NCBI GenBank assembly: GCA_964016885.1
Contig: OZ024743.1
Coordinates: 215,140,001 to 215,204,000 of the forward strand
DNA: 64,000 bases
Direction: 5' to 3'
DNA from: Eledone cirrhosa
Taxonomy: Eukaryota
The notes beneath the pieces are model-generated. The model had not been told where the DNA came from and ran no database searches. It saw only the letters and a list, made by a program, of their open reading frames with translations. Each line of letters opens with the position of its first letter. Position 1 is the first letter of the stretch. The position numbers and the translations under genes are program-made. Below, in pieces: positions 16,076 through 64,000 of the stretch.

Positions 16076-16089
16076 TATATATATATATA

Positions 16090-17122
16090 TATCAACTAGA
16101 AATAGATTGACATATATATATATATATATATATAAAATAAACAATCACAGGGAAAAAATTGTAAATAATGTAAGCACACATAGCTAGGTAGGTACCCAAT
16201 TAAAGTTTAACTAGAACTTCAAATATAGATACCTTTAAAATGATTAATTTCCTTTGTATATATTTCTTTAAGTAAAAAATATATTTCACCAATTAATCAG
16301 TAAATCACATTAGTCAAAGGAGAAGAAATAACTATCTGCGTTTACAAAGCAAATGCAAATCTGTGAATGACTCGTACATCGTGTTGCATTTTTTAAAAAT
16401 ACACACATCGCCCAGCGTCATCCCAGTGGCGTGAATAGGATTATTGACAGCTAGAAATAGCAGCCACGTCCATTCAATTGAGTTAGCTCTACAATTAAGG
16501 GGCCGTATATATATCCAAAATTAAATTAAGGGTTGTCTGTCTGAGAGACATGCGCCATATCCACTGTAGAATAAGCTCAAAGATTCCAATGTTCCGAGCA
16601 TTTCATAGAGCTAACTCAGTTGAATGGACTCGGCTGCTATTTCTAGCTGTCGATAATCCTATTCCCGCCACTGGGGTGACGCTGTGCGATGTGTGTATTT
16701 TTTTAAAAATGCAACATGTGGTTCGAGTCCTTCACAGATTTGCATTTGCTTTGTAAACGCAGATAGTTATTTTCTTCTCCTTTGGTTACCATCAAGGATT
16801 TGACTACTGTGATTTGCAGATTAATTAGTGAAATATATTTTTTACTTAAAGAAATATATACAAAGGAGATTAATCATTTTAAAAGTATCTATATTTGAAG
16901 TTGTAGTTAAACTTTAATTGTTTATCTGCCTAGCTATGTGTGCTTACATTCTTTACAAATTATTCCCTGTGATTGTTCTCTATGTTTATTTTATATATAT
17001 ATATGTCAATTTATTTCTAGTTGATATAAAATGCTCGGATCTATTCATTAGAATCTTTGAGCTTATTCTACTGTGGATATGGTTCATGTCTCTCAGACAT
17101 GACAACCCTTAATTTAATTTTG
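16090..17122. repeat. Interleaved fold-back element A'-B-A-B' bounded by (TA)n
   Basis: 16090-16491 is the reverse complement of 16606-17027; 16517-16603 is the reverse complement of 17029-17122. Confidence 0.9.
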
Positions 17123-17209
<87 letters not shown>

Positions 17210-20316: not shown

Positions 20317-20893
20317 TGTAAGAAGAAATTATAGACACAAATATATACCTATTATTTCTCAATGTCCCGACTGTACAGTTTCGCAGGTCACTATGCAAAA
20401 ATCTGATGTCATATAGATGTAATATTGCTGAGAGTTAAGCCAGCTTTTCAAGGGAGCAACTCAGGGAAAGAGCGCTAACTAGACACGTCCGTAGCATGAG
20501 AGAAAATCTCAAGAAGGCAGAGGGAGGCCCTATCACGTGATACACCGGTAGAGTAACCACGGAATTATAGAGACTGCTTTCAATCAAACACTATATACAC
20601 TTTCAGTCAATCTTACCACCCCACTGTAGCCTCTGTATCATATTTAGCCCCCAATCTTGACCGGTATATCACGTGATAGTGTCTCCCTCCGCCTTTTTGA
20701 GATTTTCTCGCATGCTACGGACGTGTCTAGTTAGCGCTCTTTCCCTGAGGTGCTCCTTTGAAAAGCTGACTTATCTCACACCAATATTACATCTCTATGA
20801 TATAAGATTTTTGCATAGTGACCAGCGGAACTGTACAGTCGGGACATTGAGGAAATAATAGGTATATATTTGTGTCTATTATTTCTTCTTACA
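20317..20893. repeat. Fold-back element with ~235-bp arms and a degenerate HHR in each arm
   Basis: 20317-20549 inverts 20660-20893. Right arm reads ttcc CTGAGGT gct..agc GGAA ctgtacag TC ggga; the left arm keeps GAAA. Confidence 0.85.
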
Positions 20894-27701: not shown

Positions 27702-27820
27702 GATATATATATATATAGAGAGAGAGATATCCCAGTAGGTACTAGGTATACACGGAAATATATATGGTGTCTATAATAGTGGTTGTTCTATGGTACTAAT
27801 TTGAGATACCAGAACTGTAA

Positions 27821-28402
27821 ATATGAGCGGAACAAGTAAATATTAAACAATCTTTTAAATAAATTAAAATACGATTTAAATATTTACCTCTTCTAGTGCC
27901 ATGACCGACGGTTTCGATTATCAAAAGATTGGAAATTCACAGAATTTCCAATGGAAAGATATAGCTCTTCAGATAGCTTTTCCAAATCTACTAGACATAA
28001 GTCCGTATACATGTAGATATATCACCCTCTGCCCAGTGAATGAATAAAGCCGTTAAAATGACGCACACACTTATTGGACCGTTAGAAAAAGCGGGTATTA
28101 TAGACTCACTGATATTACATGCTGAAATAACAGCGAGTCTATAATTCCCGCTTTTTCTAACGGTCCAATAAGAGTGTGGGTCATTTTAACGTCTTGATTC
28201 ATTCACTGGGCAGAGGGTGATATATCTACATCTGTCTAGTAGATTTAGAAAAGCTATCTGAAGAGCTATATCTTTCCATTGGAAATTCACTGAATTTCCA
28301 ATCTTTTGATAAGCGAAACCATCGGTCATGGCACTAGAAGAGGTAAATATTTAAATCGTATTTTAATTTATTTAAAATATTGTTTAATGTTTACTTGTTC
28401 CG

Positions 28403-28409
<7 letters not shown>
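27821..28409. mobile_element. Fold-back element (~280-bp arms, 27-nt spacer) carrying two hammerheads
   Basis: 27821-28107 inverts 28135-28409; the right end abuts (TA)n. Confidence 0.9.
28253..28332 (+). ncRNA. Type I hammerhead ribozyme (mirror copy at 27898-27977, minus strand)
   Basis: gctat CTGAAGA gct..attggaaattc act gaatttccaat..agc GAAA ccatcgg TC atggc; stems I-III pair. Confidence 0.85.
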
Positions 28410-28451
<42 letters not shown>

Positions 28452-31978: not shown

Positions 31979-32629
31979 CTAACACCCCCCAAAACAAATT
32001 AGTAGTGGTTTTGGCAGGTTTGCTCGACAAATCAGTGATTTGGAGATAAATATAGATAATTTAATATATCTACTAACATAAGCGCACAGATGTACGCTAA
32101 TGCCAGCAAATACACAGGTTATGTCATAGTACCTAGGTGGTTCAATGCATGAGGATGCAGAACAATAATATAAAAGACGTAAGAACAAAGCTTTTTTCCA
32201 AGAGATGTTATATTTAATAGTTTTGTCTTTCAAGGACCATATAAGTTCTGAGAGAGCCGTGTTGGTTCTTTTAAGTTGGTATTTAAAAGACGAATGATGT
32301 TTATAAAGACGAGCTTTAATGGAGGTGGAAGTGGAGCCAAAATAGGTGAAGGAATTGGTGTCAGTTATAACTTTACATTCGTAGATTAAGTTTTTATCAA
32401 GACAATGGTTGTTGAGAGGACATTCATTTTTAGCAGGGCAATTGTAATTGCGATTAGAGAGATTATTAACGAGTGACCTAGTGTTATCTATAGAAGGAAA
32501 TGGATTGGAGAAGTTATTTGCGATAGGAATAATAGTTTCTTGATTTAGAATGGGATTAAGAACATTTAGCGAAGTTGTGTTTGACGTTGTATTTGGGTCT
32601 AATTTCTGCAAACCCAAATACAACGTCAA
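31979..32629 (-). mobile_element. PLE GIY-YIG endonuclease fragment
   Basis: NCPAKNECPLNNHCLDKNLIYECKV..TYFGSTSTSIKARLYKHHSSF..TALSELIWSLKD..ISWK. Confidence 0.85.
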
Positions 32630-33235
32630 ACAGAATCTATTTTAAAATAATATATATATTTATTTGGTTCCTTTACCGGTTTTGCAGTTCTTCTGCTTTT
32701 CAATAGTAGAGTTGAGATGGAGGGTCTGTGGGTTTTCTCACATCTGGTTGGTCTCTGAATGTTACTTGTTTTATATGGAAAAAAGTGGCTCGAAAAGCCA
32801 GGTTTTTCGAGAAGTAATTTGATTGGTTGGTCAATAATTATAATAAATTTCGCGCCAGGTCGCGTTACAAAGTTCTTCAAACAAGGGAGGGGGGAGGTCA
32901 CAGGTTGTTTTTTCATATATGAGTGTTTGAATTTCTTTTTACTTAAAAAAAAGGGGGCTCACGAAGGCTTTTTTTTAACAAACGTAATTTGATTGGTTAT
33001 AAATGAAATTATGACTGTCACATGAACAAGTTTTCATTAAATTTTCGCGACCTTATGTGGAAATCTATTCTGTAGCCTTTTTAGAGAATGTTATGACAAG
33101 TAAAAGATAATGGTCAAGAGAAATTGGATGGGAGAATTGTTCTGGTCCAGTGAATATGGTTAGTTCGCTGGGGTGTCAGAATTCAGATTTTCTATTGAAT
33201 AAAGAATGTAAAGATATGTATGTTTATTCGTGTGC

Positions 33236-33306
<71 letters not shown>

Positions 33307-33315
33307 TGTGTGTGT

Positions 33316-33374
<59 letters not shown>

Positions 33375-33710
33375 CGTGTGTTTGTGTGTGTTGTGTGTAT
33401 GCGTTTGAATTTCTTTTTACTTAAAAAAAAGGGGCTCACGAAGGCTTTTTTTAAAAATAAACGTAATTTTATTGGTTATAGATGAAATTATGTCTGTCAC
33501 GTGAACAAGTTTTCATTAAATTTTCGCGCCCTTATTTCGAAATCTATTATGTAGCCTTTTTAGAGAATTTTATGACAAGCAAAAGATAATGGTCAAGGGA
33601 AATTGGATGGGAGAATTGTTCTGGTTCAGTGAATATGGTTATTTCGCTGGGGTGTCAGAATGCAGATTTTCTATTGAAGTAAAGAAAGTAAAGATGAGTA
33701 TGTTTATTTG
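32630..33710 (-). repeat. pLTR-like repeat with partial tandem duplication; same family as 57134-58114
   Basis: 32650-33090 matches 57190-57620; ~32925-33230 is repeated at ~33403-33710, separated by (GT)n. Confidence 0.85.
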
Positions 33711-34014
33711 TGTGTTTGTGTGTGTGGGTGGGTTTGTGTGTGTTGGAAGATGATTCTATTAGTAGAAATGGGGGAGGGAGTTATGTGTGTGTGTATATGG
33801 GTGTTATGTGGGTGTGTGTGGGAGTATGTTAAGATGGAGAGAATATATATAGTGTGTGTGTGTGTGTGTATATATGTGTGTGTAGGAAATTGATTCTATT
33901 AGTAGAAATGGGGGAAGTTGTGTGTGTCGGGGTGGGGGTTGTTATGTGTGTGTATCGGTGTTATGTGTGTGGGAGTATGGTTAGCAACCTAAGATGAAGA
34001 GAATATATATATAT

Positions 34015-34059
<45 letters not shown>

Positions 34060-34261
34060 GAAAATGATTCTTTTAGTAGGAATATTTTTGAATGAACATA
34101 TTTTCCTTAATTATTCGTATTTGTTCTGTTGTATTGTCAGTGCAAACGTATGTTCAGGTTTATTTAGTTCGGATTTTTATTTTCTAAATTAGAAGGTGTT
34201 ATGTGTGTGTGTATCTGTCTGTTTGGATGGTTAGCATGTTATGGTGTTGGCATACTGTATA

Positions 34262-34696
34262 TTAAACCATATTTAATGCTGGTCTATATTTTTGAATAAA
34301 CATATTTTCCTTATTTATTCGTATTTGTTCTGTTGTATTGTTAGCGCAAATGTAAAATGGGAAGACTTGGAATTTGGGTGTCTTATTACTTGCGCATATG
34401 TCTAGATGTGCGCTTAGTGGTATCTGTCTCATGGTTGGATCTCGTAATTGTTGGCGATGAACTGTCATTCTGTTTCTGAGTTTGAGTTTAGTTTGTGCTA
34501 TATAATCTTCATTGCATCCTTTACATTTCATGGCATGAAGTAGTTTTTTTGATGAGCAAGTGAAGTGATGTTTTACAGTAAAATTTTGTCCTGATTTAAA
34601 TGTATATGTGTTGCCTTCAATGAGTGCAGGTTCCACAATTAGAGTGACCACATTTTTTGACACCTCGTTGTGGGTTTGTGGTAGGTAATTTGGCAT
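34262..34696 (-). mobile_element. PLE GIY-YIG C-terminal fragment of a different (Neptune-like) lineage
   Basis: FTCSSKKLLHAMKCKGCNEDYIAQTKLKLRNRMTVHRQQ..HLDIC..RINKENMFIQKYRPALN. Confidence 0.8.
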
Positions 34697-34724
34697 TGGT
34701 GAGTAATGTTTTCAGTGATTTCGG

Positions 34725-34805
<81 letters not shown>

Positions 34806-34806
34806 T

Positions 34807-34843
<37 letters not shown>

Positions 34844-34847
<4 letters not shown>

Positions 34848-37808
34848 GAAAGAAGGTTTACATGGTTTGCTATACAAAAAAGTTTTTAATCACATAATCA
34901 CATAGCTTACCTTTGTTTCACTGAACTGGTATGTCTAGAGATCGCTATCCGCTTAATTTTGCGTTACTCGATCGCCAATACAGAATTATAACCAGTCAGA
35001 TCTCCGGAGCATGCGAGAATGAAGAAAATACACAGGCAAGAAAATAAAATAAAATACGGAGTAGTTATGGCATTCAATTAGAACAATAACAACAATTACA
35101 ACAATGCTATCAATAAACTATTTAAGGAGACCCTGATATTACTTAGGTGGGGGGTATATAATGTATCTAATGTTACGGCGTGAAAACCAGCTGTCATAAG
35201 GCAAAAAGTATCGTAGTGTGTATCAATTTTAAATTATAAAGATAAGCTAGTTTTTACAGTCTTTCTCTTCATCTTCAACAGTATACATGAGTGGGACCAC
35301 TGTCGAAGCTCAATAGTTGCAGAGTTAATATAGAGGTTAACGAATTAATATACGCATATATCTACATACACACACACACACACACATACATATATATAAA
35401 TACATATACACATATATATACATGCATGTGTACATAGACACATACATACACATCAATATACACTCGTACAAAAATATACATACATGCAAAGAGAAAAGCG
35501 TGCTAATTGTAATTATGGCAAAAAGAAGGTAAAGTAACATTGTAGTAGTGAAATGAGAAAAACTAGGATCTAGGATTTATAGGGACGACACGTTACTTAT
35601 AACTAGGAACCTAAACAACCAGAGCATGGAAAGACTAAGGAAAAATATTAGAATATTCTTCAAAAAACTAGGCCTAAGTATTACCTACGAACTAAACCAT
35701 AAGAAGGTAAATTTTCTAGATGTAACTCTAAATCTAAATACTGGATTAATAGAACCTTTCCACAAAAATAATGAAAATCTTGCCTACATTAGTTACAACT
35801 CGAATCACCCCAAATCCATAATTAAATTCATAGCACGTAGTATATCCCTCCGAATATCCCGCTTATCCTCAAACCTAGAAATCTTTAACGAGCATGCTGA
35901 CTATTATAATGCAGCATTAAGTAGGGCCGGTCATAAAGATAAACTACAGTATATAGTGAATAAGGACAACATAAACAATCCTAGTAATTTCTACTCCAAC
36001 CGCTCACATAATAATAGGAATAGCTTGACTAGACATAGGGTTAGACATGTAACACCTAGAGTAAACGGCCAAAAACACTAATAACGTAAACCCTAGAAAC
36101 AATAGAAGAAACAGACAAAGAAAATACCTATGGTTCAACCCAATATTCAACTCCTCTATAAAAACTAGACTGCCCTCTACATTATTTAAACTAATAGATA
36201 AACACTTCCCTATCTCGCATAGATATCACAAAATACTCAATAGATCTACTATAAAACTCTCTTTCTCAACAGCAGCTAACATAGAATCACACATACGCAA
36301 GATCAACCACAGAAATATCTCAAGTAAATCAATTGCACCTATACATAAGCACAAACTCATCACTACATCACAACCACAAGCGCATACAAATGCGCAGCAG
36401 CAAAACCCCATTGGGCATATATCACAACCCACTTATAACAGGGTACTAAATAGGAATGGAAAAGCTGCACAAAATAGCGCCTCAAACTGCAACTGTCACC
36501 TCCCAGATAGGTGCCCATTGGCGAACAGTTGTCTCGATTCGAGCCTGGTGTACATGTGCACTGTCATCTCGGGTAACTCCACCTGGAATTACATAGGATC
36601 CACCGCGGGTTCTTTTAAGAAAAGATGGTATGTGCACAGGCACTCAATGAAAAAACGTGCACTTATGGGTTCCACCACCCTCGCCAGAAAAATATGGGAA
36701 TTGAAGGACAGCAACACTAACTACACTATCAACTGGTCGAAGTTGTCGGCTGCTAAAACCTATAGTACAGGGATGTCCTATTGCGGGCTGTGTGATCTTG
36801 AGCTATTGTATATCCTTAGAAATGTTAAAAGGCTACTTAATAATAAGTTAGAAAGATCTATCTTCTGCAGACATAGAATAGCCACTAAATTCATAAGATT
36901 CAAACCTCCGTGAATCGAACCAACATAACATAGCTTTAAATTAGGATACCTACTACCCACAGAAATATATTCATTAAGTATACTATTTCCTTCACAAGTC
37001 TATACCACACAATTGTCTGTAAGTACCTCATCTACCAATAATCTTACTCCTTCTCAGCTGCTGCAATCATTTGATCCTAGATCCTAGTTTTTCTCATTTC
37101 ACTACTACAATGTTACTTTACCTTCTTTTTGCCATAATTACAATTAGCACGCTTTTCTCTTTGCATGTATGTATATTTTTGTACGAGTGTATATTGATGT
37201 GTATGTATGTGTCTATGTACACATGCATGTATATATATGTGTATATGTATTTATATGTATGTGTGTGTGTGTGTGTATGTAGATATAAGCGTATATTAAT
37301 TCGTTAAACTCTGTATTAACTCTGCAACTATTAAGCTTCGACAGTGGTCCCACTCATGTATACTGTTGAAGATGAAGAGAAAGACTGTAAAAACTAGCTT
37401 ATCTTTATAATTTAAAATTGATACACACTACGATACTTTTTGCCTTATGACAGCTGGTTTTCACGCCGTAACATTAGATACATTATATACCCCCCCCCCC
37501 ACCTAAGTAATGTCAGTGTCTCCTTAAATAGTTTATTGATAGCATTGTTGTAATTGTTGTTATTGTTCTAATTGAATGCCATAACTACTCCATATAGTAG
37601 CCGTATTTTCTTTTCTTTTCTTGCCTGTGTATTTTCTTCATTCTCGCATGCTCCGAAGATCTGACTGGTTATAATTCTGTATTGGCGATCGAGTAACGCA
37701 AAATTAAGCGGATAGCGATCTCTAGACATACCAGTTCAGTGAAACAAATGTAAGCTATGTGATTAAAAACTTTTTTGTATAGCAAACCATGTAAACCTTC
37801 TTTCCTGA
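34844..37808 (+). mobile_element. 5'-truncated PLE flanked by ~730-bp inverted pLTRs
   Basis: 34844-35575 inverts 37075-37808. Between them: IYRDD, VNFLDVTLNL, SNHPKSI, LWFNP, CNCHLPDRCPL and WNYIGST..KKRWYVH..CGLC. Confidence 0.9.
37647..37759 (+). ncRNA. Variant hammerhead in the pLTR (mirror at 34901-35013, minus strand)
   Basis: catgct CCGAAGA t ctgactggt..accagttcag t GAAA caaatg TA agctatg. Confidence 0.65.
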
Positions 37809-37978
37809 TTTATTATTACTCCAAGTATTTACAACATAGGAATTACGGCATACCCGCAGCATCACTATGAAAACGCCTTGTTGAGTCAAACCAAGCCAAG
37901 CGTTAATACCATCCACTACCTGGAATACCATAACTGGACTTCACCTAAGCGGACTGCATTTAACTATTATTTGTTAAT

Positions 37979-38136
<158 letters not shown>

Positions 38137-38171
38137 TGTGTATGTGTTTGTTTTTATATTTAATTATTCCA

Positions 38172-38365
38172 AGGGCAGTGGATCGGCAGTATCGGTAGAG
38201 GGTCGGACGCTATGCTTTGACGCATGGAGTTATGGCTCTTGCCATTCTGAGTTCATATCTCACCGAGGTTAACTTTGCCTTTCATTCTTACGGGGTCGAT
38301 AAAATAAAGTACCAGTAATGTACTAGATAATTGCTGGCCTTGTGCCAAAAGTAGAAACAATTATT
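38172..38365 (+). mobile_element. Octopus-type SINE
   Basis: Full-length match to the 20894 and 54508 copies. Confidence 0.9.
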
Positions 38366-38562
38366 TAATTATTCCCCGCCCCCGACCTTTCGTTGTCTAA
38401 AACCCCCTTATGGATTTATTTTAATTTATTTATCCTAATTTTATTTATTTGTTATTATTAATTAATATTTTCTTATATATTTTTTGAAATTTGTTTATGT
38501 TATTTACTTATATCGGTCCCCGAACTACTTCGCAATGTTATCTACATATTAATATACGTGTA

Positions 38563-39667: not shown

Positions 39668-41419
39668 AACGTAAATAGAAATTAAATTGCAACGATACAA
39701 TCCAATGGCGAATTATATTAGTATAATAGAATGAACGTTTTGATTATTTCGGAAACACGTCTTTTATCACATGATAGAATGTGAAATAAATGTGAAATAG
39801 AAAAATTAAGAACCAGAAGAGGAAGGTACTAATAAATAATGAAGAAAATGAAAAAAATTAGCATTCATACAGCTATGATTTGGTATAAATATCTTCCTTA
39901 TTGTAAAGAATATTGCCTCAATTAATTATATTTAATAGACAAAAGTTATAACATGGTTTATGATTTGGGTGATAAAATATCATATACTGTTGTATGTAAT
40001 TTGAATGTTGCACTTTGTCCAGAGTCTCATCAAAATGTAATGTTATTTAGTTTGAAAAGTGCATCTAAGCACAACTAATTCATATCCATTAAGATATCGA
40101 ATTTTACTGAATTCATCAGTGAAACTTATATCATGTTCATTCATTTGACAAGAACATTTATCAAATAATAATTATGTATATTTGCATTGATTCTAACGAA
40201 AATCTGCTAATACACTCTGAATTCGGTTTAAATATTTATTATTTAGATAACATTTTTACTGAATGAAAATGAGAACAACTATTTCAATTAAAATTGATAT
40301 CTTATTTGTCACAAATAGCGATAATATAGAGAGATCTCTGTAGATAGGCATAATAGTAATTGTCTTCTAATGGGGTAGTTGGGTTCTGAATCACAGGAAA
40401 ATAATATTCCTTCGGCCAATCTAGCGGAGGCATAATTGAGTATGGCTGAGTGTGGGTGATCATTCCCTAAACTCATAATCCTTGCGTAATACTCAGCGAG
40501 AATCAGCATCACGCTTTGTTTACATAGCCAATCTTTAGAATACAGCCTATTTCAGGCTTCCAACACATTTCTGTTAACGTATATTTGTTTTTACTTTAGC
40601 AGAATGGCCGAGAGCTTTTGTTAAAAACAAACATTGTGATGATGTAATGCACGTATATCGAACCAAATACTGCATGATTGCAAAGGGAATGTCAAGTCTA
40701 TTTGGCCACACATTACTTTATAAATAATTATGCCTACTAATAGAAGGTACAAAAAGAAAATAACTACACAATATATAGGAATGAAAATCAATTTTAAATG
40801 GTAAATTCATATGGAAAATATTTAATCGGAAATAAACAAATGTCATGCAATTTGATATCAGCTAAGAATATAAATTCCATTAACCTAGATCGGAAATTAA
40901 AATTTTCCTTTCTGTTAAACACGACTGCAGAAATAAAATTACGAATTGCAAGAGAAACATCATTTCCCTTGAAACTAGAATTCGATAATTAATTTTCTAG
41001 TATGATGAAGTTTAATTCTTTACATAGAATAAGGGTATACAATAATAATGTTTCTGCATCAAAGGCATTCGTTCATTCTAGGTTTAAGTTTCTCCCCAGG
41101 AAATATTTCTCAGAGTCTCCATAAATTGTAAGCAAGGGTCATATGTATAATTATAATTAATAATGAACTTTCATTTTACTCAATTTAATTAAACAATTAA
41201 TTTCATAAATGAATATTCTGATAGCTCGTGTAAGTAGTAGCGAAATAATACAGCCACGTATACAAAACATGCAGAGTCTCAGAGATAAAAATCACCGATA
41301 CAGAAATACATCTACGACGGATGATATGCATAACATTGAGTTCTTTAAATAATTTGTTGCATCATCGTTTACCAACCTCACACACCAATTCTTCCCATTG
41401 GTAAACAGCATAACATAAA

Positions 41420-41534
<115 letters not shown>

Positions 41535-43623
41535 CGTGTGTGTGTGTGTGTATATATATATATATTTGTGTTTATTTCCGATTAAATATTTTCCATATGA
41601 ATTTACCACACACACACACACATATATATATAAACATATATTATTCAAAATATTAAGAAATGAAAAATATTCTCATTATCAAAATATATACTTTATTATA
41701 TATATTTCAGAGGTAGTGTGTTGTTTTTTCAGTACGTCCTCATCAGACAAAATATATGATTTGATATATGACATACCGCTACGGTCTTTATTATTCAATT
41801 CCAGTATTGGTAGTGATTTATTTCATCAAATCTCAATGTTTATATACCACAAATAATATTATAAACTTAAAAAAGGACGTAGAGCAAATTAGAGATATGA
41901 GAGAGTGTGTAAAGAAGAGTAAAGGGTAGAAAAAAATAAATACATACATAAATAGATAAATGGATAACAAATAAATGGATGAATGAGTAAAATAAATATA
42001 TAAGAAGAGAGAGGAATAACGACCAAAACGGGAAGGTGTGGGGAAAGTAAAGGGAACAGAGGGGGTTAAAGAAAATAAAGAATAATAAAGGAACATCAAA
42101 AAGAGGGGAATAGATTAAAAAAACCGTTGTTTTCAAATGCTAGATCAAATAGGACATCCAATCAATTCACATAATCAATTGAATATCTTTTGTATTTGAT
42201 TATGCTTTAGCTAATTATACTTATATATTATATCAACATTAATTAGTATAGATTACTTTCTATAGCAATCACATATATAGTCTAATTAAACATTTATATA
42301 ATTTAATTTAATTCATTATAGCTGAAATATATATAATAAAGTATATATTTTGATAATGAGAATATTTTTCATTTGTTAATATTTTGAATAATATTAAAAA
42401 CTCCAGGAAAACGAGCGTGTTGAGCGCTTATAATCTATTGTAAAATTGCATTCATTGAGTAATCAACGAAACATACTAATCTTTGGTCTTATGTAAATAT
42501 ATATATATATATTTGTGTGTGTTCATTTGGGAGTAATATTTTGTCCAAACTTGCATAGTCATCCGCGGTTCATTGAAATTGTGACCACTAGTTTCCGTAA
42601 CTTAGCAGGTAAGGACTTCCACGGTAACATATATTTTCAAAGTGTTTGTATTACAGCTGTTATTGTTCTCTCGTATTTGCTTTATGATTTGTTGTTGTAA
42701 ATATAGTGTTACATTTGTTAAAGGTCAGAAATTCCCCTTATTCTCCTATGCAGTGCTTCTGTTGTTATTGCTGTTGTTGTAGTTCATATCGATGGCCTTC
42801 ATTGTGATGTTTATACGGGTTATAGTGACAATTTTGGGGAAGCTGACCTTGCTCATATTTACATCATGATGTTGGCTATCACCAAGAAAATGCTGCATGC
42901 TCTTCTTGTCAATTTTCTCTTTCGCTATTCTGTTCTGTGGATGAGTAGGGAAAGTTCGCTTCCAAATTCTTTTTAGACAATTATGGGCATAATTTGCAAT
43001 TTTACGTAGGAGATAGAGGAATGAGCCAGCTTGAGCTGTCATGCAAAATATCAGCCATTGAACTAAACCATTACTTTAAATCGACAGATGATTGGGTGCT
43101 GAAAATGGTTGCTGAACATGAAAGGACGAATTAAGAATACTTAACATAAAATTTTAAAATGATGGTGATTCAGCAATTAAGCCTGCAAAGAAAGGAAACG
43201 TTGCGAATTATAAAGGTCAACGGAAACTGAGCTCTATATGAGAGCAAACACATTTATATGGGAAGTATAACCTACGTATTAAAGAAACTGATGTCGATTA
43301 AACACACACCCATCACTCTCTACGGATACTTGGGCTAAAAGCAAGACGTGAGGGATTCAATTTGGCTGCACATTATCAATGTGGACCAAAGCGCAATTTC
43401 AAGCTAATTTGATTACAAAAGATAATTAACATACATGTCGTTTTGCGCTGAGCATTTTGAGACCACTGATCACCTGGTTTGAGGCTGCAAACACATACAC
43501 ACATACACACACACATATATACATATATATATATATATACATATATATACATATATATATATATATATACATATATATACATATATATACATATATATAC
43601 ATATATATACATATATATATATA

Positions 43624-44283
43624 TTTCGTTCGATCTCACGCTCTTGAACTTATGTTCTGTTACCGCTGTGATCTTGGATTCTCTCTCTAGTTGCTGCCCA
43701 TTCTTCGGTTTGTTGTTTTTTTCGCTGTTTTCTCTTTTCCCCCTTTCCCTTCTATTTTCCTTTCTCTCCCTCCTCCGTTTTCCCAATAACTTACCCGGTT
43801 ATTGAACGCTCTGGGGTAGATATATTGTCGTTAAAGCGTTGAAATATCCGAGACCCCCAGGAGACAACTGACGAGACTCCAACCCAACCGGTCCTTGCTT
43901 TCTTCTTACTCTCATTCCATTTTTAAGCCTATATATATATCAAGATATATATATATATATATAAATATATATATATATAGGCTTAAAAGTAGAATAAGAG
44001 TAAGAAAGCAAGGACAGGTCGGGGGGGGGGTCTCGTCAGTTGTCTCCTGGGGGTCTCGGATAGTTCAACGCTTTAAAGACAATATATCTACCCCCAGGGC
44101 GTTCAATAACCGGGTAAGTTATTGGGAAAACTGAGGATGGAGAGAAGGAAAATAGCAGGGAAAAGGGGAAAAGAGAAAACAGCGAAAAAAACAACAAACC
44201 GAAGAATGGGCAGCAACTAGAGAGAGAATCCAAGTTCACAGCGGTAACAGAACATAAGTTCATGAGCCTGAGATCGAACGAAA
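43624..44283. repeat. Fold-back with ~310-bp arms and a (TA)n spacer
   Basis: 43624-43935 inverts ~43975-44283. Confidence 0.9.
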
Positions 44284-45240: not shown

Positions 45241-45465
45241 AATAATGATTTCTAGTACAGGCACAAGGCCAGTAATTTACGGGCAGAGTAAAGTCGATTA
45301 AATCGACCCCAGTACGTTACTGGTGATTTATTTTATCGACCCCGTAAGGATGAAAGACAAAGTTAACCTCGGCGACATTTGAACTCAGAAGGTAAATGGC
45401 CATAACTCTATGCTGCAAAGCATGGTGTCTGACGCTCTACCGATACTGCCAATCCACCACCCTTA
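45241..45465 (-). mobile_element. Octopus-type SINE, full length
   Basis: Same family as 38172; tail on the minus strand is ggccttgtgcctgtactagaaatcattatt. Confidence 0.9.
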
Positions 45466-48892: not shown

Positions 48893-49323
48893 ATAAAATA
48901 TAAAAAAAATAATGAATAAAACAATGAAACAGTTCCTTATATTAAACAAAAAAAGTTCATTATTTAACGATCGTTTCTAGGATATATATGTGTTAGAATT
49001 GGCATGCATATTCAACAGATCTATGTACAAAATTATACAAAATTATACAAACTATCAAAATTAAATATACATACCAAACACATATATATGCCGTCTTCAG
49101 AAATAATGATTATTTCTGAAGACGGCATATATATATGTTTGGTATGTATATTTAATTTTGATAGTTTGTATAATTTTGTATAATTTTGTACATAGATCTG
49201 TTGAATATGCATGCCAATTCTAACACATATATATCCTAGAAACGATCGTTAAATAATGAACTTTTTTTGTTTAATATAAGGAACTGTTTCATTGTTTTAT
49301 TCATTATTTTTTTAATATTTTAT
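48893..49323. mobile_element. Near-perfect 430-bp palindrome centred at 49108 and made of two hammerheads
   Basis: Centre reads ..gccgtcttcagaaataat-g-attatttctgaagacggc..; the arms differ at very few positions. Confidence 0.95.
49109..49257 (+). ncRNA. Hammerhead with ~115-nt stem II insert (mirror at 48959-49107, minus strand)
   Basis: attattt CTGAAGA cgg catatata..tatatatcc ta GAAA cgatcg TT aaataat. Confidence 0.8.
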
Positions 49324-49498
49324 CTTGACTCTGTATTCCGTTTATCTTTCACCGAAAGTGATTTTTCATTGCATCTCTTATTTCCATGATATCCGGATTA
49401 CATTGAGTTCTTCATACGGATTGGACACTACCGTAAACTCTTGGTAGATTTATCTACATATATATATATATATATATATATGCACATATATATATATA

Positions 49499-50573: not shown

Positions 50574-51112
50574 GGAATTTCGTATTTCTGAGGAAATACG
50601 TTATGTTTATTATAAACATTTAGAGAACCGTAGCCTTGCCAAAGCACCAGCGACTATCGTCTTTTGGCGGTGCCCAACAGAAGCAAGTCGTACAATCGGA
50701 ATGCGCATTTCGAACTGAACTCTTTCTCATCAGCACGATCCCTTCCACTCTTGCAACGGCTAGACTTTGAAAACAGACGAGAATATATGGATTTCTCGTT
50801 TGTGTAGATGAAGTGATTCATCTCATTTCCATATGGAGCTGTACATGTTTGCTTAACTTATAATAGAATAGAATTACAATTTAGCTTCAGGCAAAGTTGT
50901 AGACAAACATGTTTAGGAAATTCGTATTTCAGAAGACATGCGGTATGTTTAAAACAAACATTTAAACAGCAAGAGTGGGAGGAATCGTGCTGGTGAAAAC
51001 CAGTTCAGTTTGAAATGCACACCCACGATTGTCCCCCTTGCTTATGCTGGACACCGCCAGACGCTGTTAGGCGGTGAGGCTCTGGCATAGCCACGGCTAT
51101 CTAAATGTTTAT
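50574..51112. mobile_element. Diverged fold-back with a hammerhead pair (50695-50739 minus; 50984-51029 plus)
   Basis: Consensus atcgtg CTGATGA gaa..ttc GAAA tgcgca T(C/T) cacgat; ~50612-50753 inverts ~50969-51112. Confidence 0.75.
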
Positions 51113-54702: not shown

Positions 54703-54747
54703 TTCTGACAATATTATAATAATATGACGCTCCCCACCTATAACAAT

Positions 54748-57133: not shown

Positions 57134-58114
57134 ATATAAAGAAAAAAAGATGAAATCGAAAATGCAACTGGAGTCTTATTTAAACAAATATGTATATATT
57201 TATTTGGTTCCTTTACCGGTTTCGTAGTACTTCTGCTTTTCAAAAGTAGAGTTGAGATGGAGGGTCTGTGGTTTTTCTCACATCTGGTTGGTCTTTGAAT
57301 GTTACTTGTTTTATATGGAAAAAAGTGTCTCGAAACACCAGGTTTTTAGAGAAGTAATTCGATTGGTTGGTCAATAAATACAATAAATTTCGCGCAGCTC
57401 GCGTTACAAAGTTCTTCAGAGAAGAAGGGGGGTGCTCAGGTTGTTTTTTTCATATATGAGTGTTTGAATTTCTTTTTACTTAAAAAAAGGGGCTCACGAA
57501 GGCTTTTTTTAAATAAATGTAATTTGATTGGTTATGAATGAAATTATAGCAGTCACGTGAACATTTCATTAAATTTTCGCGCCCGTATTTGGGAATTTAT
57601 TTGTAGCCTTTTAGAGAATGTTGCGTTTGTCATAAATTCTCTAAAAGGCTACACAATAAATTACCAAATACGGGCGCGAAATTTAATGAACTTGTTCCCG
57701 TGACAGCCATAATTTCATTTACATCCAATTAAATTACATTTATAAAAAAATCCTTCGTTAGCCCCTTTTTTTAAGTAAAAAGAAATTCAAACACTCATAT
57801 ATAAAAAAACAATCTGAGCACCCCCCCCCCCTTGTTTAAAGAGCTTTGTAACGCGAACTGGCGCGAAATTTATTATACTTATTGACCAACCAATCAAATT
57901 ACTTCTCTAAAAACCTGGCGTTTCGAGCCACTTTTTTCCATATGAAACAAGTAACATTCAAACACCAACCAGATGTGAGAAAAACCACAGACCCTCCATA
58001 TCAACTCTACTTTTGAAAAGAAGAAGAACTGCGAAACCGGTAAAGGTACTAAACAATTTTTTTTTAAAAATAAGACTCCAGTTGCATTTTCGATTTCATC
58101 TTTTTTTCTTTATA
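57134..58114. mobile_element. Fold-back (~485-bp arms) with variant hammerheads (57210-57248 minus; 58008-58048 plus)
   Basis: 57134-57619 inverts 57636-58114; consensus tactt TTGAAAA gcag aagaa ctgc GAAA ccgg TA aagg. Confidence 0.85.
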
Positions 58115-58251
58115 CTTTCACTCGTGTAGGACACCTCGGTTATTTTTCATTTTGTAAAAAAGCCTCACTTTCTAATATATATATATAGTGGTAGAACACT
58201 GGAAGATAATATCCGTAGAGGTAGAGCACTCAGTCCATGAGACGAGTTAGG

Positions 58252-58466
58252 TAGAAGTGGTTACACAACAGTTAGTTCACCATACCGAGAACAATTGTTT
58301 CACATTAGCGGATCCTTAGCTCGTAATTGACATGCTTATACGGAACAGCCTGTTCACATTGTGAACAGCCTGTTCCGTATAACCATGTCCAATACGAGCT
58401 GAGGATCTGCTATGTTGAAACAATTGTTCTAGGTATGGTGAACTAACTTTTGTGTAAGGACTTCTA
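58252..58466. mobile_element. 215-bp palindrome centred at 58359 with a hammerhead pair (58283-58325 minus; 58393-58435 plus)
   Basis: Consensus tacgag CTGAGGA ..11 nt.. GAAA caattg TT ctcggta; ends at (TA)n. Confidence 0.85.
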
Positions 58467-58593: not shown

Positions 58594-59098
58594 TATATAA
58601 AACAAAAATAAGAATTGCATTTTACTGTTTCTACAGATTATAGATATTTGTATAGGATAAAATATCTCTTAATGTCGTGCGTGCACGCCTGGCTAGATTA
58701 GCGTACCCAGGTCAGTCAGCCTTCATATACCTTCCTCCTTGTATTTCGGTCGGTTTAGCACCCTGCTGCTGACATGAAGCTTATAAACTACGTACATAAC
58801 ATTCTAGATGACTGACGTCTCCCTGTGACAGACAAGAAAAACAACAAACTTGTTAATATGTTTTGATTTGATTTTTTCGCTTAGCTATTTTTGCTTTCAA
58901 TACATGCCCATATATGCACTCTACCCTATAATAAGTTCAGCTAGATTCCCGCCGTTATTATACTGGTCGCTTAGTTCGGATCTACCTGTCGAAACGGCCG
59001 GAGCTCAGCCATCGGAGTCCTACATATATATATATATATATTATATATGAATTTATTTTCAAGATTTCTTATCTGGAAAAGTGTGTTGAAACAGATAT

Positions 59099-59504
59099 TG
59101 TTGTAGTTACGGAGGGTCATGCTACCAATAAAAATACACGCATCTGTTGCTTTTCACGTCAATGTAAAAATTTGCGGTCGATTGGTTGGTTCGATAACTG
59201 GATAGTTGTATATATTGCCAAAGTTCTTTCGACACACATCAGGGAGTAGGTATTTATTTTCTGTCTTGACCTTGTTCTGTCCTACACTATCTTCTGCAGG
59301 CCAGAACAACGGAGAGGCACACACAATAAAAATATAGTCATTGAGGAGGTCACAGAATGTGTGTCGAAATAGATTTGACAATATATAAATAATATTCTGG
59401 TTATCGAACCAACAACCAATCGGAAACGTACAATGAATTGAAGTGAACAGCAACATATGCGTTTGTTTTTATTGGCACCATGACCCTCCCAAAGTATGAC
59501 AACA
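59099..59504. repeat. Diverged fold-back with ~140-bp arms
   Basis: ggagggtcatg.taccaataaaaa..gattggttggttcgataac..tttcgacacacat inverts 59358-59504. Confidence 0.75.
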
Positions 59505-59520
59505 TATATATATATATATG

Positions 59521-60168: not shown

Positions 60169-60524
60169 TGACGGATGGATGTAGAAGACATTCAAAACCG
60201 TAGTACAGTGTAGATATAAATTTTCATTTTATCAAGGTCAAAATTACTTCGGAGTTTTGGTGAGAATTTTTCTATTACCCTCTCTACTACACCAATTATC
60301 GAGTACTCTGGTGTGTTATGGTCCACCTGGGATCTTACCACATCCTCTTTGTTATATATATATATATATATATGCCCATGGCAGACGGGAACTAAAATAA
60401 AGAATATGTCACCAACGTTTACGATGGACAACCAAGATATATATATAATTGGTGTTGGATGCTTAAAGCGTCCGTATGCGGTGGGCCCTATGAGCACTCG
60501 ATGCCCTCGTAGAGCAGAGTATGC

Positions 60525-62971
60525 TATCACAGAAAAAAGAGAATCAGTGTTGCGACGAAAGGAATTACAATTGTTTCTCAGGCGACCAGCTCGAGGCACG
60601 ATCGATGTGGTGATCAAACCTGACTCTGAAATCACGTGGTCCTCGGATACGTTGCGATTCTACGAAGCAGATTTTCCTATTGTCCTTTAACATCGAATTC
60701 TTTCGTTTGTTGATTTAGATCCTGCTGTCGTCAATCCATGAGTGGTCAAGAATTGTACAGATCACCGGTATTTCTAGGCACTCATGGTTGCCCACTGTTT
60801 GGTTCTTCTCGTTCTCCACCTGTCAATCAAAATTTCTACATATATCAGAATTACTACTGTGGTGGGAGAGTGGCTGTAATCTTAAACGGCTGGCATCACG
60901 TCGACGTATTCGTTGTCGCTAGGCTCCCTGGTCCACAGCGGTCAGGTACACACACGCAATTATGCTGTATGTGGCAGTCATTGTAAATAATGTTGGCGGT
61001 TTTTTTTTTCATTAAAAAAAATCATAGGGATATTTAGCATAACATTTCTAGGACACAGCCTTAGAATACCCTCCACCAATACATATTTCAAAAAGGAAAA
61101 GAAAAAGAAAAAGAAAAAGAAAAAGAAAAAGAAAAAGAAAAAGAAAAAGAAAAAGAAAAAGAACGTTTTTAAATGAAAGCTTGCAACAGCATTTCAAACA
61201 GAAAGGCTATATCAGAGATGTTTTCAACAAATACACCCAATTCTACACTCACACACTGGACTCAGGGGAGCCCGCATAGGCAAGACGCCGCACATATATA
61301 GACAGATGAATTTTAATTTTAATTCTAATTTTAATTTCAAGTTTTAATTTTGTCGTTCCATGCCGCTGGTACACACGCACACAACGCCTGCCGCTAGCAC
61401 ATTACAATCATGCATACTCTCCACGTGCATTCCATATATACTGTTATGAAACTCATACCCTTTACATTCCATGTATACATCAAACCCATGCACATCCCAT
61501 ATATACTTTTTATGAAATAGATGTTACACATAACCACAATATATATAACTTGTTTGTGTACGCATGCACGGCCCACATCTATCCACAAGCCACGAGACCT
61601 GCATCATGCGCAGGCTCCCACCCAGTGCCTTAGATCACCAGCCCCCATATATATCATATAAACATTTTCACCACACACCCAAGTATTGTATGCAACTTTA
61701 TCCACACCCCGATAATGCCCGATTCCCCTCTGCATCCTTGTCATGTATGCATTCTCTTTTTCCAGAATTTTATTTTATTGTATTTTATCTTATTGTATTT
61801 TATTATTGTATATTATTTCATTATTATATTATTTTATGTTATGTATGTACAGACATTTTTATATATATGCCACCCACGGTATATGTGATTAGTGCAAGAA
61901 TATTGTGCTGCCTTAAAATTTAGGCATATTGTTCAGGTAACTTCGGATTCATACCGCCACGTGATCTGGTTGGGTCAAAGCCTCAAAAGCGTTGTCTCAT
62001 ACAATACTGTGTGTTCCATCTGCGCAGCTGCGCGTGTGAAGACGGATGAGGGGGTACTCATCAAGTATATGCCTCCGGTATGGTACCACGCGGGTGCATG
62101 AATGTATGTGTGTCCACACAGACATGCATGAGCATGGGTGTGCGCATGCCTGGGTCGATGTATCTGTCTCAGCATGTCTGCGTGGGGGTATGGATGAGTA
62201 TCTATGGATTTTCTTTTCATCTGTCTATATATGTGCGGCGTCTTGGCTATGCGCGCTCCCCTGAGTCCAGTGTGTGAGTGTAGAATTGGGTGTATTTGTT
62301 GAAAACACCTCTGATATTGCCTTTCTGTTTGAAAGGCTGTTGCAAGCTTTCATTTAAAAACGTTCTAATACAGGTTTTTTCTTTTTCATTTTGAAATATG
62401 TATTGGTGGAGGGTATTCTAAGGCTGTATCCTAGAAATGTTATGCTAAATATCCCTATGATTTGTTTAAAAGTAAAAGAATATTCCCGCCAAACATTATT
62501 TACAATGACTGCCGCATACATCATAGTTGCGGGTGTGTAACTGGCCGCTGTGGACAAGGGAGCCTAGGGACAATGAAGACGTCGAAGTGATGCCAACCGT
62601 TTAAGAACTCAGCGGTTCTCCCACCACAGTAGTAAATCTGATATATGTAGAAATTCTGATTGACAGGTGGAGAACGAGAAGAACCAAACAGTGGGCAACC
62701 ATGAGTGGCTAGAAATACCGGTGACGTGTAGAATTCTTGACCACTCATGGGATGGCAACAGGATCTAAATCAGCAAACGAAAGAATTCGATGTTAAAAGA
62801 CAATAGGAACATCTGCTTCGTAGATTCGAGACGTTTCCGAGGACCGCGCGATTTCAGAGTCAGGTTTGATCACGACATCGATCGTGCCTCGAGCTGGTGG
62901 ACCGAGAAACAATTGTAATATGTCCAATAAATTCCTTTCGTCGCGACACTAATTCTCTTTTTTCTGTGATA
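60525..62971. mobile_element. Large fold-back with ~770-bp arms and a ~900-bp spacer
   Basis: 60525-61310 inverts 62216-62971. ORFs 60738-60986 and 62521-62748 are mirror translations. Candidate HHRs at 60561-60652 (minus) and 62831-62923 (plus). Confidence 0.9.
61096..61163. repeat. (GAAAA/GAAAAA)n microsatellite expanded in the left arm only
   Basis: Directly visible; the right arm has only a short T run at the matching position. Confidence 0.9.
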
Positions 62972-63029: not shown

Positions 63030-63438
63030 TTAAAAAAAATTGAACGTTTTAGAAGCCTCAACAATGCAGATGGGTAAATCTCCGGGAAACAGAATCCGGT
63101 GGTGAAGAGAGAAATGTAAGAGGAAATGTAGAATGAGATGTATAGTTTGTAAGGCGACGTAGGAAATAGCGTAAAAATAAAAAATAAATACTTTCCCCCT
63201 CGGAAACCCCCCAGTTGATGGATGCGAAATCCGAAATATAGGGACAATTAAATCTCACCCAAGGTAACTCTATCTCTTGTTATTATTTTTATTCTTATGC
63301 TCTTTCCAACGTTCCTCTACACAGTATATATCTCATTCTACATTTCCTCTTACGTCTCTCTATTCACCACCGGATTCTCTTACCCGGAGATTTACCTATC
63401 TGCATTTTTGAGCCTTCCAAAACGACCAAATTTATAAA
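63030..63438. repeat. Diverged fold-back with ~160-bp arms
   Basis: aatgcagatgggtaaatctccggg..gaatccggtggtgaa..gtaagaggaaatgtagaatgagat inverts ~63330-63410. Confidence 0.85.
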
Positions 63439-63456
63439 TATATATATATATATATC

Positions 63457-63598
63457 TCAAAGGTATATATTGACTTAGCAACTCAAAATAGTCTCTTACA
63501 ATTAAATAGCTCAAAGAAAGAGGTATTGCACGGCTCAGAAAAACCTATTTAATTGTAAGAGATTATTTTGAGTTTCTAACTCATTATATACCGTTGAT
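63457..63598. repeat. Small fold-back with ~50-bp arms
   Basis: actcaaaatagtctcttacaattaaatag / ctatttaattgtaagagattattttgagt. Confidence 0.85.
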
Positions 63599-64000
63599 AT
63601 AGTCGGCTCCAGTGATAATTTAAATCTCCTGTAAACTTGGCTGCTATTTTTAGTAGCGTACGTTTATGAGACACACTAGTTTCTGATGCCATGTGCGTTA
63701 TTTTATATTCGCACACTATTTAGTCTTCTGAGATACTTTTGAAGTGAAGGGTTTACTAATTTCACACCACTGATGAGCAAAGTATTGGTAATTCCCTTCG
63801 CTAAAATTGCGAAACAGCCTACCAAAGCTTTCTGGGCGTTAGGCAGTTACCCAATATTGGTTTCTTTTTCTTTCTTGATTTATTGATTTATATTGAGTCT
63901 GGCAAACCGTATTCTTATTAGTTAGGATTTTTTCAACCAAACGAATCTGGTCCCTTCGATTTGAACACATATATGTTTATATCTGTGTTTATCTCTCTTT

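What the first reader, a model, noticed from the sequence alone, without database searches (positions are those of the whole stretch)
34844..37808. Coding PLE with the same fold-back architecture: link to the ORF-less elements
Seen: a truncated RT-thumb/GIY-YIG region lies between 730-bp inverted repeats whose outer parts contain an HHR-like motif ~55 nt from the end. Inference: shrinking the coding spacer to 900 bp (60.5 kb), 27 bp (27.8 kb) or 1 bp (49.1 and 58.4 kb) would give the other fold-backs, so one mechanism may explain the whole series.
Basis: partly seen in the sequence, partly recalled or inferred. Interest (0 to 1): 0.75.

Follow-up and report, generated by a model that had tools for sequence, protein, structure and literature searches.

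The report
Penelope retroelement with folded-back end
This is a dead, truncated copy of a Penelope-like jumping gene whose end was copied back on itself as it inserted, a layout already described for these elements, and most of the gene-less hairpins nearby look like shorter products of the same process in other families.

Summary
[quoted passage not shown] Public reads show that the insertion runs on through a one-sided ~170-nt tail to 37981, that both family ends abut (TA)n, and that other copies of this family fold back at other points: 7 head-to-head joints, spacers 131-821 nt, 5 without coding DNA. The window's other 12 fold-backs, however, are unrelated in sequence: separate families, not shrunken copies. 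Of 13 fold-backs, 11 abut (TA)n on one side and 8 carry hammerhead signatures. One arm family also lies downstream of a Neptune-type endonuclease frame. Best mechanism: the truncated cDNA turns back on itself during target-primed reverse transcription. The architecture is published, including for a Hydra-clade element. New member of a known kind; modest interest.

The parts
34727..34842 (.). (TA)n tract abutting the short 3' end of the inverted arm
   Evidence: sequence; distance 0
34843..35576 (-). Inverted, 5'-truncated copy of the element's 3' end (734 nt), stopping at the family's short end; no tail
   Evidence: the family's short end at 37813 is followed by (TA)n in 200 reads of X11 and one X5 contig
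34898..35016 (-). Second copy of the hammerhead, with A6 changed to G in the core (probably inactive)
   Evidence: arm alignment; not found by the descriptor
35577..36081 (+). 5'-truncated RT from the YRDD motif through the thumb; head-to-head junction at 35576/35577
   Evidence: profile match E about 1e-43
36065..36913 (+). Linker (WFNP motif, CxCx5C finger) and C-terminal GIY-YIG endonuclease lacking CCHH, with CxxC..E and CxH; frameshift near 36071 private to this copy
   Evidence: table 4
36914..37073 (+). Part of the 3' non-coding region not copied into the inverted arm
37074..37809 (+). Direct arm (3' non-coding region / pseudo-LTR), 736 nt
37644..37762 (+). Type I hammerhead fold: stem I 9 bp with one bulge, core 37653-37659 with C at position 4, 81-nt stem II (37660-37740), 1-bp stem III, predicted cut after 37752
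   Evidence: 0 of 2000 shuffles; cleavage not tested
37810..37981 (+). One-sided tail of about 170 nt, part of the element, ending at a second family-wide 3' end followed by (TA)n; probably the 5' leader of the next tandem unit (inferred)
   Evidence: depth continues in 4 of 4 runs; loose ends at 37976 run into TA repeats in 4 X1 and 2 X3 contigs; by-eye motif likeness to the 5' end of Hydra-1_Obim
37982..38134 (.). (TA)n tract after the tail
32633..34725 (-). Neptune-type PLE fragment (GIY-YIG frame 34711-34262) followed, through a chain of local duplications, by a non-folded copy of the 57-kb arm (32633-33092) that lacks the outer ~36 nt
   Evidence: 412 of 463 columns identical to 57171-57622
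57135..58174 (.). ORF-less fold-back: arms 485/479 nt, spacer 16, 60-nt tail on the right, U3-A8-type hammerhead remnant
58188..58466 (.). ORF-less fold-back: arms 107 nt, spacer 1, 64-nt tail on the left; the tail recurs in a second copy at 56306-56416 that folds at another point
27718..28412 (.). ORF-less fold-back: arms about 290 nt, spacer 9-17, 100-nt left extension, full type I hammerhead with canonical core (cut after 28327)
48893..49457 (.). ORF-less fold-back: arms 215 nt (99%), spacer 1, 134-nt right extension, palindromic hammerhead half-core in both arms
60448..62971 (.). ORF-less fold-back: arms 786/756 nt, 905-nt non-coding spacer, 77-nt left extension, palindromic hammerhead half-core in both arms
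16088..17122 (.). ORF-less fold-back whose 114-nt spacer is mostly an inverted copy of its 94-nt right tail; no hammerhead signature found
20317..20893 (.). ORF-less fold-back, spacer 110, half-core in one arm; not directly against (TA)n
43624..44283 (.). ORF-less fold-back, spacer 0-2, (TA)n on the left; no hammerhead signature found
50612..51112 (.). Old ORF-less fold-back (78%), spacer 214, half-core in one arm; not directly against (TA)n
59042..59505 (.). ORF-less fold-back, spacer 117, 53-nt left extension; no hammerhead signature found
63036..63601 (.). Two adjacent ORF-less fold-backs (63036-63433, spacer 95; 63453-63601, spacer 35) sharing one (TA)n tract; no hammerhead signature found

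Best explanation
The locus is one insertion of a Hydra-clade Penelope-like retroelement into (TA)n, now dead. Shown: domain content, head-to-head layout, two family-wide 3' ends about 170 nt apart, both followed by (TA)n, and variable fold points among copies. Inferred mechanism: the element's GIY-YIG nicks (TA)n and the RT primes cDNA from the far end of the tail. Synthesis stops at a variable point (here at the YRDD codons). The new strand then turns back onto itself, at a point 0 to about 1500 nt behind its end, and is copied outward to the short end, where it is joined to the other side of the target. If the stop lies in the ORF, the result is a coding fold-back like this one; if it lies in the 3' non-coding region, the result is an ORF-less hairpin. 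Most other fold-backs in the window are such stubs of other PLE families. Each insertion leaves (TA)n on both sides, which would explain why they chain together.
For: Hydra-clade motifs in the window protein and its relatives. Same layout listed for Penelope-13_HM: a 5'-truncated inverted copy at the 5' end, with a hammerhead on each strand. Two 3' ends, each running into (TA)n, and depth rising towards the 3' end. Seven head-to-head joints at different places in other copies (geometry from read starts, note 4). Both arms share the minority base at 37324 and 37339, where 87-100% of laid depth differs, which points to one template. Spacers <=2 nt in 3 of 13 and <=17 nt in 5 of 13 fold-backs, against 0.5% and 4-5% expected per pair for two independently truncated cDNAs (P about 3e-5 to 2e-4). 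Two copies of the 58-kb family fold at different points, both with spacers of about 12 nt or less. (TA)n against exactly one end in 11 of 13, P about 3e-14; within 53-171 nt of the other end in 9 of 12, P about 3e-4. Self-priming was proposed from junction palindromes in PMC3846280.
Against: The read joints show 0 letters fitting both sides (2 in the one contig joint), whereas snap-back priming should often leave microhomology. Two or three of the 10 opposite-strand joints (near 37898-37906) appear tail-to-tail, which this model does not explain. Joints come mostly from one RAD-seq run: visible only near its cut sites, 3-54 reads each, 1-4 starts, so library chimeras are not excluded. Shared arm alleles could also come from gene conversion or from a source subfamily. 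Five of 13 fold-backs have no hammerhead signature, and only one ORF-less family is tied to a coding frame, through a repeat-rich stretch. The half-core pattern was chosen after viewing the sequences, although it matches a published feature.
Confidence: 0.62

Rival explanations
1. Two-primer insertion: a dimeric PLE protein nicks both strands of (TA)n and primes two cDNAs, one from each RT start site (with and without the tail). They stop independently and are end-joined head to head.
For: A purified Poseidon protein cleaves and extends both strands and starts at two sites that bound the tail (PMC11167929). Junctions without microhomology. The tail-only inverted piece at 16506-16604 stops at the short end, as a cDNA blocked by a second primer would. 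Long spacers (514-1497 nt) fit easily.
Against: Excess of near-zero spacers at variable positions (two copies of the 58-kb family). Shared minority alleles in both arms require one RNA or one source locus.
Confidence: 0.22
2. The fold-back forms on RNA: an antisense transcript self-primes, and the hairpin is reverse-transcribed and integrated (model of Arkhipova et al. 2013).
For: It predicts head-to-head palindromes and a single template; at DNA level it looks like the best explanation.
Against: It does not by itself explain why the outer ends fall on the two family-wide 3' ends next to (TA)n. No antisense promoter has been shown here.
Confidence: 0.1
3. The ORF-less fold-backs are MITE-like or Foldback DNA transposons with long terminal inverted repeats that insert at TA, unrelated to the coding PLE; or they are non-autonomous units copied whole.
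For: TA targets and long inverted repeats are typical of Tc1/mariner derivatives (recalled). A mariner-like element with 61-bp inverted ends lies at 55353-56159. Five fold-backs lack a hammerhead signature.
Against: One-sided extensions; hammerhead signatures only on the outward strand (half-core 6 of 13 sense, 0 antisense, 0.2 expected per single arm; plus 2 full folds). Fold points differ between copies of one family. A non-folded copy of the 57-kb arm lies behind a PLE frame.
Confidence: 0.05
4. Assembly artefact, or a local inverted duplication of unique DNA at a fragile (TA)n tract.
For: Long palindromes beside microsatellites are error-prone in assembly. No laid contig spans the whole stretch, and this locus's own junction was not seen as a joint.
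Against: Arms differ by 1-22% between fold-backs. At 37308, 37333 and 37517 the left arm holds the family base and the right arm another. The arm stops at a family-wide end, not in unique flank.
Confidence: 0.01

Closest known systems
Hydra-clade PLEs (Craig et al. 2021, PMC8557442), in particular Penelope-13_HM and Hydra-1_Obim
   Same: C-terminal GIY-YIG without CCHH, CxCx5C linker, CxxC and CxH around the conserved E and N, (TA)n target, hammerhead near the 3' end. Penelope-13_HM is listed with a 5'-truncated inverted copy at its 5' end and a hammerhead on both strands.
   Different: A different family from Hydra-1_Obim by eye (different hammerhead; roughly half the residues alike after YRDD). 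Tail about 170 nt against the 30-40 bp reported. Hammerhead has an 81-nt stem II and C at core position 4, whereas the listed Hydra hammerheads have canonical cores and short stems II.
Penelope elements of Adineta vaga with inverted pLTRs, one-sided tail and junction palindromes (Arkhipova et al. 2013, PMC3846280)
   Same: Head-to-head inverted pLTR, optional tail on one end, palindromes at the inverted junction read as self-priming, unrelated DNA captured between pLTRs.
   Different: There 8-10 bp target duplications are visible; here (TA)n hides any. Here the arms are longer (up to 790 nt) and the fold-backs far denser.
Minimal hammerheads of metazoan PLEs (Cervera and de la Pena 2014, PMC4209133)
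   Same: Palindromic helix III, U3-A8 core variant, and pairs of hammerheads 100-700 bp apart on opposite strands in Schistosoma, which match the ORF-less fold-backs.
   Different: The very long stem II and U4C core of this family were not seen in the two parts of the paper I read (parts 1-2 of 4).
Poseidon of Anolis in vitro (Frangieh et al. 2024, PMC11167929)
   Same: Two RT start sites bound the tail; both strands are cut and extended; AT-rich targets.
   Different: Different clade; start sites lie close together inside the ORF start. Inverted products are not explained in the parts I read (parts 1-2 of 4).
Non-LTR retrozymes (10.64898/2026.07.22.740005)
   Same: ORF-less, hammerhead-bearing, PLE-derived.
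   Different: Retrozymes are head-to-tail tandem units; these are single head-to-head stubs with copy-specific junctions.

Membership tests
Hydra-clade EN+ PLE | RT followed by C-terminal GIY-YIG endonuclease in one ORF | tested here: met
   YRDD/thumb then GIY..YIG; Atlas look-alikes at 0.95-0.96 named GIY-YIG; all 21 long relatives carry YRDD, 2 of 10 scanned hit Pfam RVT_1 below cut-off; laid runs lack the frameshift. Pfam itself gave no relevant hit for the window frames.
Hydra-clade EN+ PLE | CxCx5C linker motif | tested here: met
   present in the window protein and in 103 of 153 relatives (definition)
Hydra-clade EN+ PLE | CCHH motif absent from the endonuclease | tested here: met
   no CxxC between GIY and YIG in the window protein or in any of 153 relatives
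Hydra-clade EN+ PLE | CxxC and CxH around the conserved E and N | tested here: met
   both present; 137 and 113 of 153 relatives
Hydra-clade EN+ PLE | RWK and DKT motifs; no IFD, no N-terminal CxC | not testable with these tools
   this copy is truncated downstream of them; among 21 long relatives the relaxed patterns match 8 (RWK/R) and 17 (DKT-like)
Hydra-clade EN+ PLE | Insertion into (TA)n | tested here: met
   both ends here and both family ends in reads
Hydra-clade EN+ PLE | Canonical hammerhead near the 3' end | tested here: inconclusive
   full type I layout (0 of 2000 shuffles) but U4C core, 81-nt stem II, no Rfam hit; U4C lowers activity in vitro
Hydra-clade EN+ PLE | Groups with reference Hydra proteins in an RT tree | not tested
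   reference sequences were seen only in a paper supplement and compared by eye
PLE insertion architecture | Inverted 5'-truncated copy at the 5' end | tested here: met
   definition
PLE insertion architecture | Tail on one end only, 30-40 bp | tested here: inconclusive
   one-sided tail shown as element sequence for this family and the 58-kb family, but 170 and 64 nt long
PLE insertion architecture | Target-site duplication | not testable with these tools
   hidden in (TA)n; no empty site available (no genome held)
PLE-derived stubs (the 12 ORF-less fold-backs) | Arm found 3' of a PLE ORF | tested here: inconclusive
   1 of 12 (57-kb arm behind a Neptune-type frame) within 64 kb; no genome to test the other 11
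PLE-derived stubs (the 12 ORF-less fold-backs) | Hammerhead signature pointing outward near the end | tested here: inconclusive
   7 of 12 (1 full fold, 6 palindromic half-cores); none in 5
Non-LTR retrozyme | Head-to-tail tandem units, each with a hammerhead | tested here: not met
   head-to-head single stubs; definition
MITE / Foldback DNA transposon | Symmetric ends and a fixed internal structure across copies | tested here: not met
   tested for 2 families (34.8 kb and 58 kb): asymmetric ends and copy-specific fold points; not tested for the others

The most novel reading that the evidence does not exclude
If the host is an octopus (inferred from a Hydra-1_Obim-like element at 29.4-30.8 kb and the microsatellite load; not shown), PLE fold-backs from many families, whose arms cover about 13% of this window, could be the main genomic source of the long near-perfect double-stranded RNA behind the exceptional A-to-I hyper-editing reported for octopus. 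They would play the part that a palindromic Harbinger repeat plays in the frog. The many fossil junctions would also let one read the unexplained turn-back step of PLE transposition statistically.
Probability: 0.2. Interest if true: 0.7.

Novelty: new member of a known kind. Interest (0 to 1): 0.3.

Why it matters
How PLEs make tandem and inverted ends is stated to be unresolved. A genome with many families and many copy-specific junctions allows a direct count that separates snap-back from two-primer models. For annotation, it argues that such TA-flanked hairpins should be filed as PLE stubs, not MITEs. A tail of about 170 nt and a hammerhead with an 81-nt stem II would be missed by the usual descriptors. 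If the host is an octopus, the hairpins are candidate editing substrates: PMC5625713 reports exceptional dsRNA potential and hyper-editing there and left octopus out of its repeat analysis. None of this makes the locus itself surprising to a specialist.

Tried and rejected
No whole genome is held, so genome-wide consensus building, spacer distributions and arm-to-ORF tests were not possible. Rfam: no match at gathering score in the window, and only low-complexity microRNA-type hits in the locus. Pfam: no relevant family for 9 window frames. tblastn with 6 relatives and a Hydra-type profile found no coding remnant in 11 of 12 ORF-less fold-backs; these queries cover Hydra and Neptune types only. 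The one weak hit (right arm at 57.6-58.0 kb, 14.6 bits; best reversed-sequence control 4.5) scores 5.1 in the left arm and nothing in the third copy; I do not rely on it. My first spacer count (7 of 13 at <=17 nt) used hand-set centres for the two 63-kb hairpins and was withdrawn; aligned values give 5 of 13. Rows dropped before the count of 13: low-complexity matches, the mariner-like pair at 55353-56159, four palindromes under 80 nt, a 40-nt pair at 40799-41608, and dispersed inverted copies. The hammerhead region's folding energy is not above shuffles. No RNA holder was listed among public runs. Summed depths are not copy numbers. Earlier-findings look-ups by place, by sequence and by one word set gave nothing. 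Paper searches for a link between cephalopod editing and PLE fold-backs returned no paper making it, judged from the listings and the passages of PMC5625713; the library lacks most subscription papers. Rejected: shrinking of this element's spacer as the origin of the other hairpins (no shared sequence); assembly artefact; retrozyme.
Full report
Observation. Self-BLAST and arm alignment confirm inverted arms at 34843-35576 and 37074-37809 with 1497 nt between them. Identity is 98.6% over 720 ungapped columns and 94.5% with gaps. The spacer holds two overlapping frames (35557-36081, 36065-36913) and 160 nt of non-coding DNA. The first frame starts at a YRDD motif, so more than the thumb survives. 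All four laid runs lack one base at 36071, so the frameshift is private to this copy. The arms differ by 10 substitutions and several indels, which argues against an assembly duplicate. No laid contig spans the whole stretch, and this junction was not itself seen as a joint.

Protein. Pfam names nothing relevant. A full scan found 5522 relatives at E<=0.001, and Atlas look-alikes at 0.95-0.96 are named GIY-YIG proteins. Craig et al. 2021 (PMC8557442; passages, sections 11 and 20, and parts of the supplement read) define the Hydra clade by a CxCx5C linker, absence of CCHH, CxxC and CxH around the conserved E and N, and (TA)n targets. The window protein has all of these. Of 153 relatives held (the best 150 of the scan plus 3), 103 carry CxCx5C and none has the CCHH-type cysteines. 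The N-terminal motifs cannot be tested because this copy is truncated, and I built no tree against the reference set.

Hammerhead. Rfam finds none. A type I descriptor allowing a long stem II finds one in the right arm: stem I of 9 bp with a bulge, core at 37653-37659 with C in place of U4, an 81-nt stem II, and a cut site after 37752, 57 nt from the arm end. None of 2000 dinucleotide shuffles scored as well, and the opposite strand has none. The unconstrained fold gives this three-way layout, though its energy is ordinary (z -1.25). The left copy has A6 changed to G. U4C is a natural variant that lowers activity in vitro (PMC3088659, passages). Cleavage is untested.

The family in reads. I laid 4 of the 13 listed runs on 35577-37980. 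Depth rises towards the 3' end, as expected for a repeated, 5'-truncated family; the tool warns that it is no copy number. Two 3' ends appear, each running into (TA)n: one at 37813 (200 reads of X11, one X5 contig) and one just past 37976 (4 X1 and 2 X3 contigs). So 37810-37981 is a one-sided tail of about 170 nt, and the insertion is longer than the finding states. By eye, the motif at the short end resembles the 5' end of the Hydra-1_Obim consensus about 140 nt before its start codon, which suggests the tail is the leader of the next tandem unit (inference). Ten opposite-strand joints are listed. For six, the short side equals the distance from a RAD read start on the minus strand, which makes them head-to-head; one contig joint is head-to-head too. 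Their spacers are 131, 136, 181, 242, 514, 637 and 821 nt, and five contain no coding DNA. Two others (37347/37898, 37474/37903) appear tail-to-tail and one is undetermined; I cannot explain these. The joints come mostly from one reduced-representation run with few independent starts, so they are a biased sample and chimeras are not excluded.

One template. At 37308, 37333 and 37517 the left arm holds the common family base and the right arm another, as expected for later mutation. At 37324 and 37339 both arms share a base that 87-100% of laid depth lacks. The arms therefore came from one molecule or source locus, or were homogenised later.

The series in the window. After dropping low-complexity rows, one mariner-like pair, four palindromes under 80 nt, one 40-nt pair and dispersed copies, one search leaves 13 local fold-backs with arm identities of 78-99%. 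No two match each other at E<=1e-6, so they are separate families. Eleven of 13 have (TA)n within 5 nt of exactly one outer end (2% expected per end; P about 3e-14). Nine of 12 measurable have (TA)n 53-171 nt beyond the other end (P about 3e-4). For the 58-kb family this extension is element sequence, because a second copy at 56306-56416 shares it; that copy folds at a different point. Two fold-backs have a full hammerhead fold (34.8 and 27.8 kb). Six more have a palindromic half-core on the outward strand, none on the inward strand, against 0.2 expected per single arm (pattern chosen after viewing, but published in PMC4209133, parts 1-2 of 4 read). Five have neither. The 57-kb arm recurs unfolded at 32633-33092 (412 of 463 columns), downstream of a Neptune-type endonuclease frame at 34711-34262 (63-65% to two relatives). 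Overlapping local duplications link the two, but a separate insertion into the CA repeats between them is possible. No coding remnant was found in the 905-nt spacer at 60.5 kb or in 10 other ORF-less fold-backs, and the weak hit in the 57-kb arm is not reproduced in its other copies.

Mechanism. Spacers are <=2 nt in 3 of 13 and <=17 nt in 5 of 13, against 0.5% and 4-5% expected if two cDNAs stopped independently (P about 3e-5 to 2e-4; an earlier count of 7 was withdrawn). Together with variable fold points and shared arm alleles, this favours a nascent strand turning back on itself (0.62). Against it, junctions show 0-2 letters of overlap. A two-primer route fits the in vitro finding that a Poseidon protein extends both strands from two start sites (PMC11167929, parts 1-2 of 4 read) and fits the tail-only inverted piece at 16506-16604; I give it 0.22, and both may operate. 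Self-priming on antisense RNA (PMC3846280, passages and discussion read) gets 0.10. That this locus is a PLE insertion with an inverted truncated copy is near certain; the doubt is about the step that makes the inversion.

Comparison with what is known. An inverted 5'-truncated copy next to the 5' end, and a tail on one end, are standard PLE features. The Hydra-clade element Penelope-13_HM is listed with exactly this layout and a hammerhead on each strand, and an octopus Hydra family is on record. Paired hammerheads 100-700 bp apart on opposite strands were reported in Schistosoma. Retrozymes (10.64898/2026.07.22.740005, part 1 of 5 read) differ in being tandem. What differs here from the texts I read is the tail length, the long-stem U4C hammerhead and the density, with arms covering about 8.1 kb of 64 kb. 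I saw only parts of one supplement, so further variants may be on record. Earlier AI notes from other genomes reached similar readings; they are unchecked and add no independent support.

Verdict. A new member of a known kind. Interest 0.3. The boldest reading not excluded is that such fold-backs supply the double-stranded RNA behind octopus hyper-editing (PMC5625713, passages read). Host identity is inferred only, and expression is untested; probability 0.2.

Noticed in passing
window 29358-30807 (+): A second, decayed Hydra-clade PLE (RT through endonuclease), by eye closer to Hydra-1_Obim than the 34.8-kb element; no inverted arm found.
   Followed up: partly
window 32192-32641 (-): A third Hydra-clade fragment whose 5' truncation point carries a 20-bp inverted repeat (32575-32635), a miniature snap-back of a different type.
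   Followed up: partly
window 16088-17132: The spacer of this fold-back is an inverted copy of its own 94-nt tail with its TA run, ending at the short end (order: arm inverted, tail inverted, arm, tail).
   Followed up: partly
window 37765-37981, in laid reads: 249 reads of X11 and contigs of X1 and X5 carry unrelated sequence upstream of 37765: a second family seems to share only the last ~45 nt and the tail, without this hammerhead. It may be a non-autonomous partner.
   Followed up: no
window 37898-37906, in laid reads: Three opposite-strand joints end in this 9-nt stretch of the tail, at least two apparently tail-to-tail; possibly a third terminus.
   Followed up: partly
window 57995-58050: Across its three copies, the 57-kb family suggests a minimal hammerhead with the U3-A8 core pair; each single copy is damaged.
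   Followed up: partly
window 55353-56159: Mariner-like transposase remnant between 61-bp inverted ends (family name recalled from the translation).
   Followed up: no
window 7175-7324, 18783-18956, 20862-21104, 38140-38366, 45259-45487, 54510-54723: Dispersed ~200-nt repeat in at least six copies, SINE-like (label recalled); one abuts the right arm of the 20.3-kb fold-back.
   Followed up: no
window 56460-57127 and 59519-60112: Two stretches with direct repeats (64 bp at both ends of the first; a ~295-bp tandem pair in the second), each beside a fold-back; possibly partial-tandem PLE ends.
   Followed up: no
window 663-10794: Decayed non-LTR retrotransposon frames (RT and endonuclease motifs) on both strands (labels recalled).
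   Followed up: no
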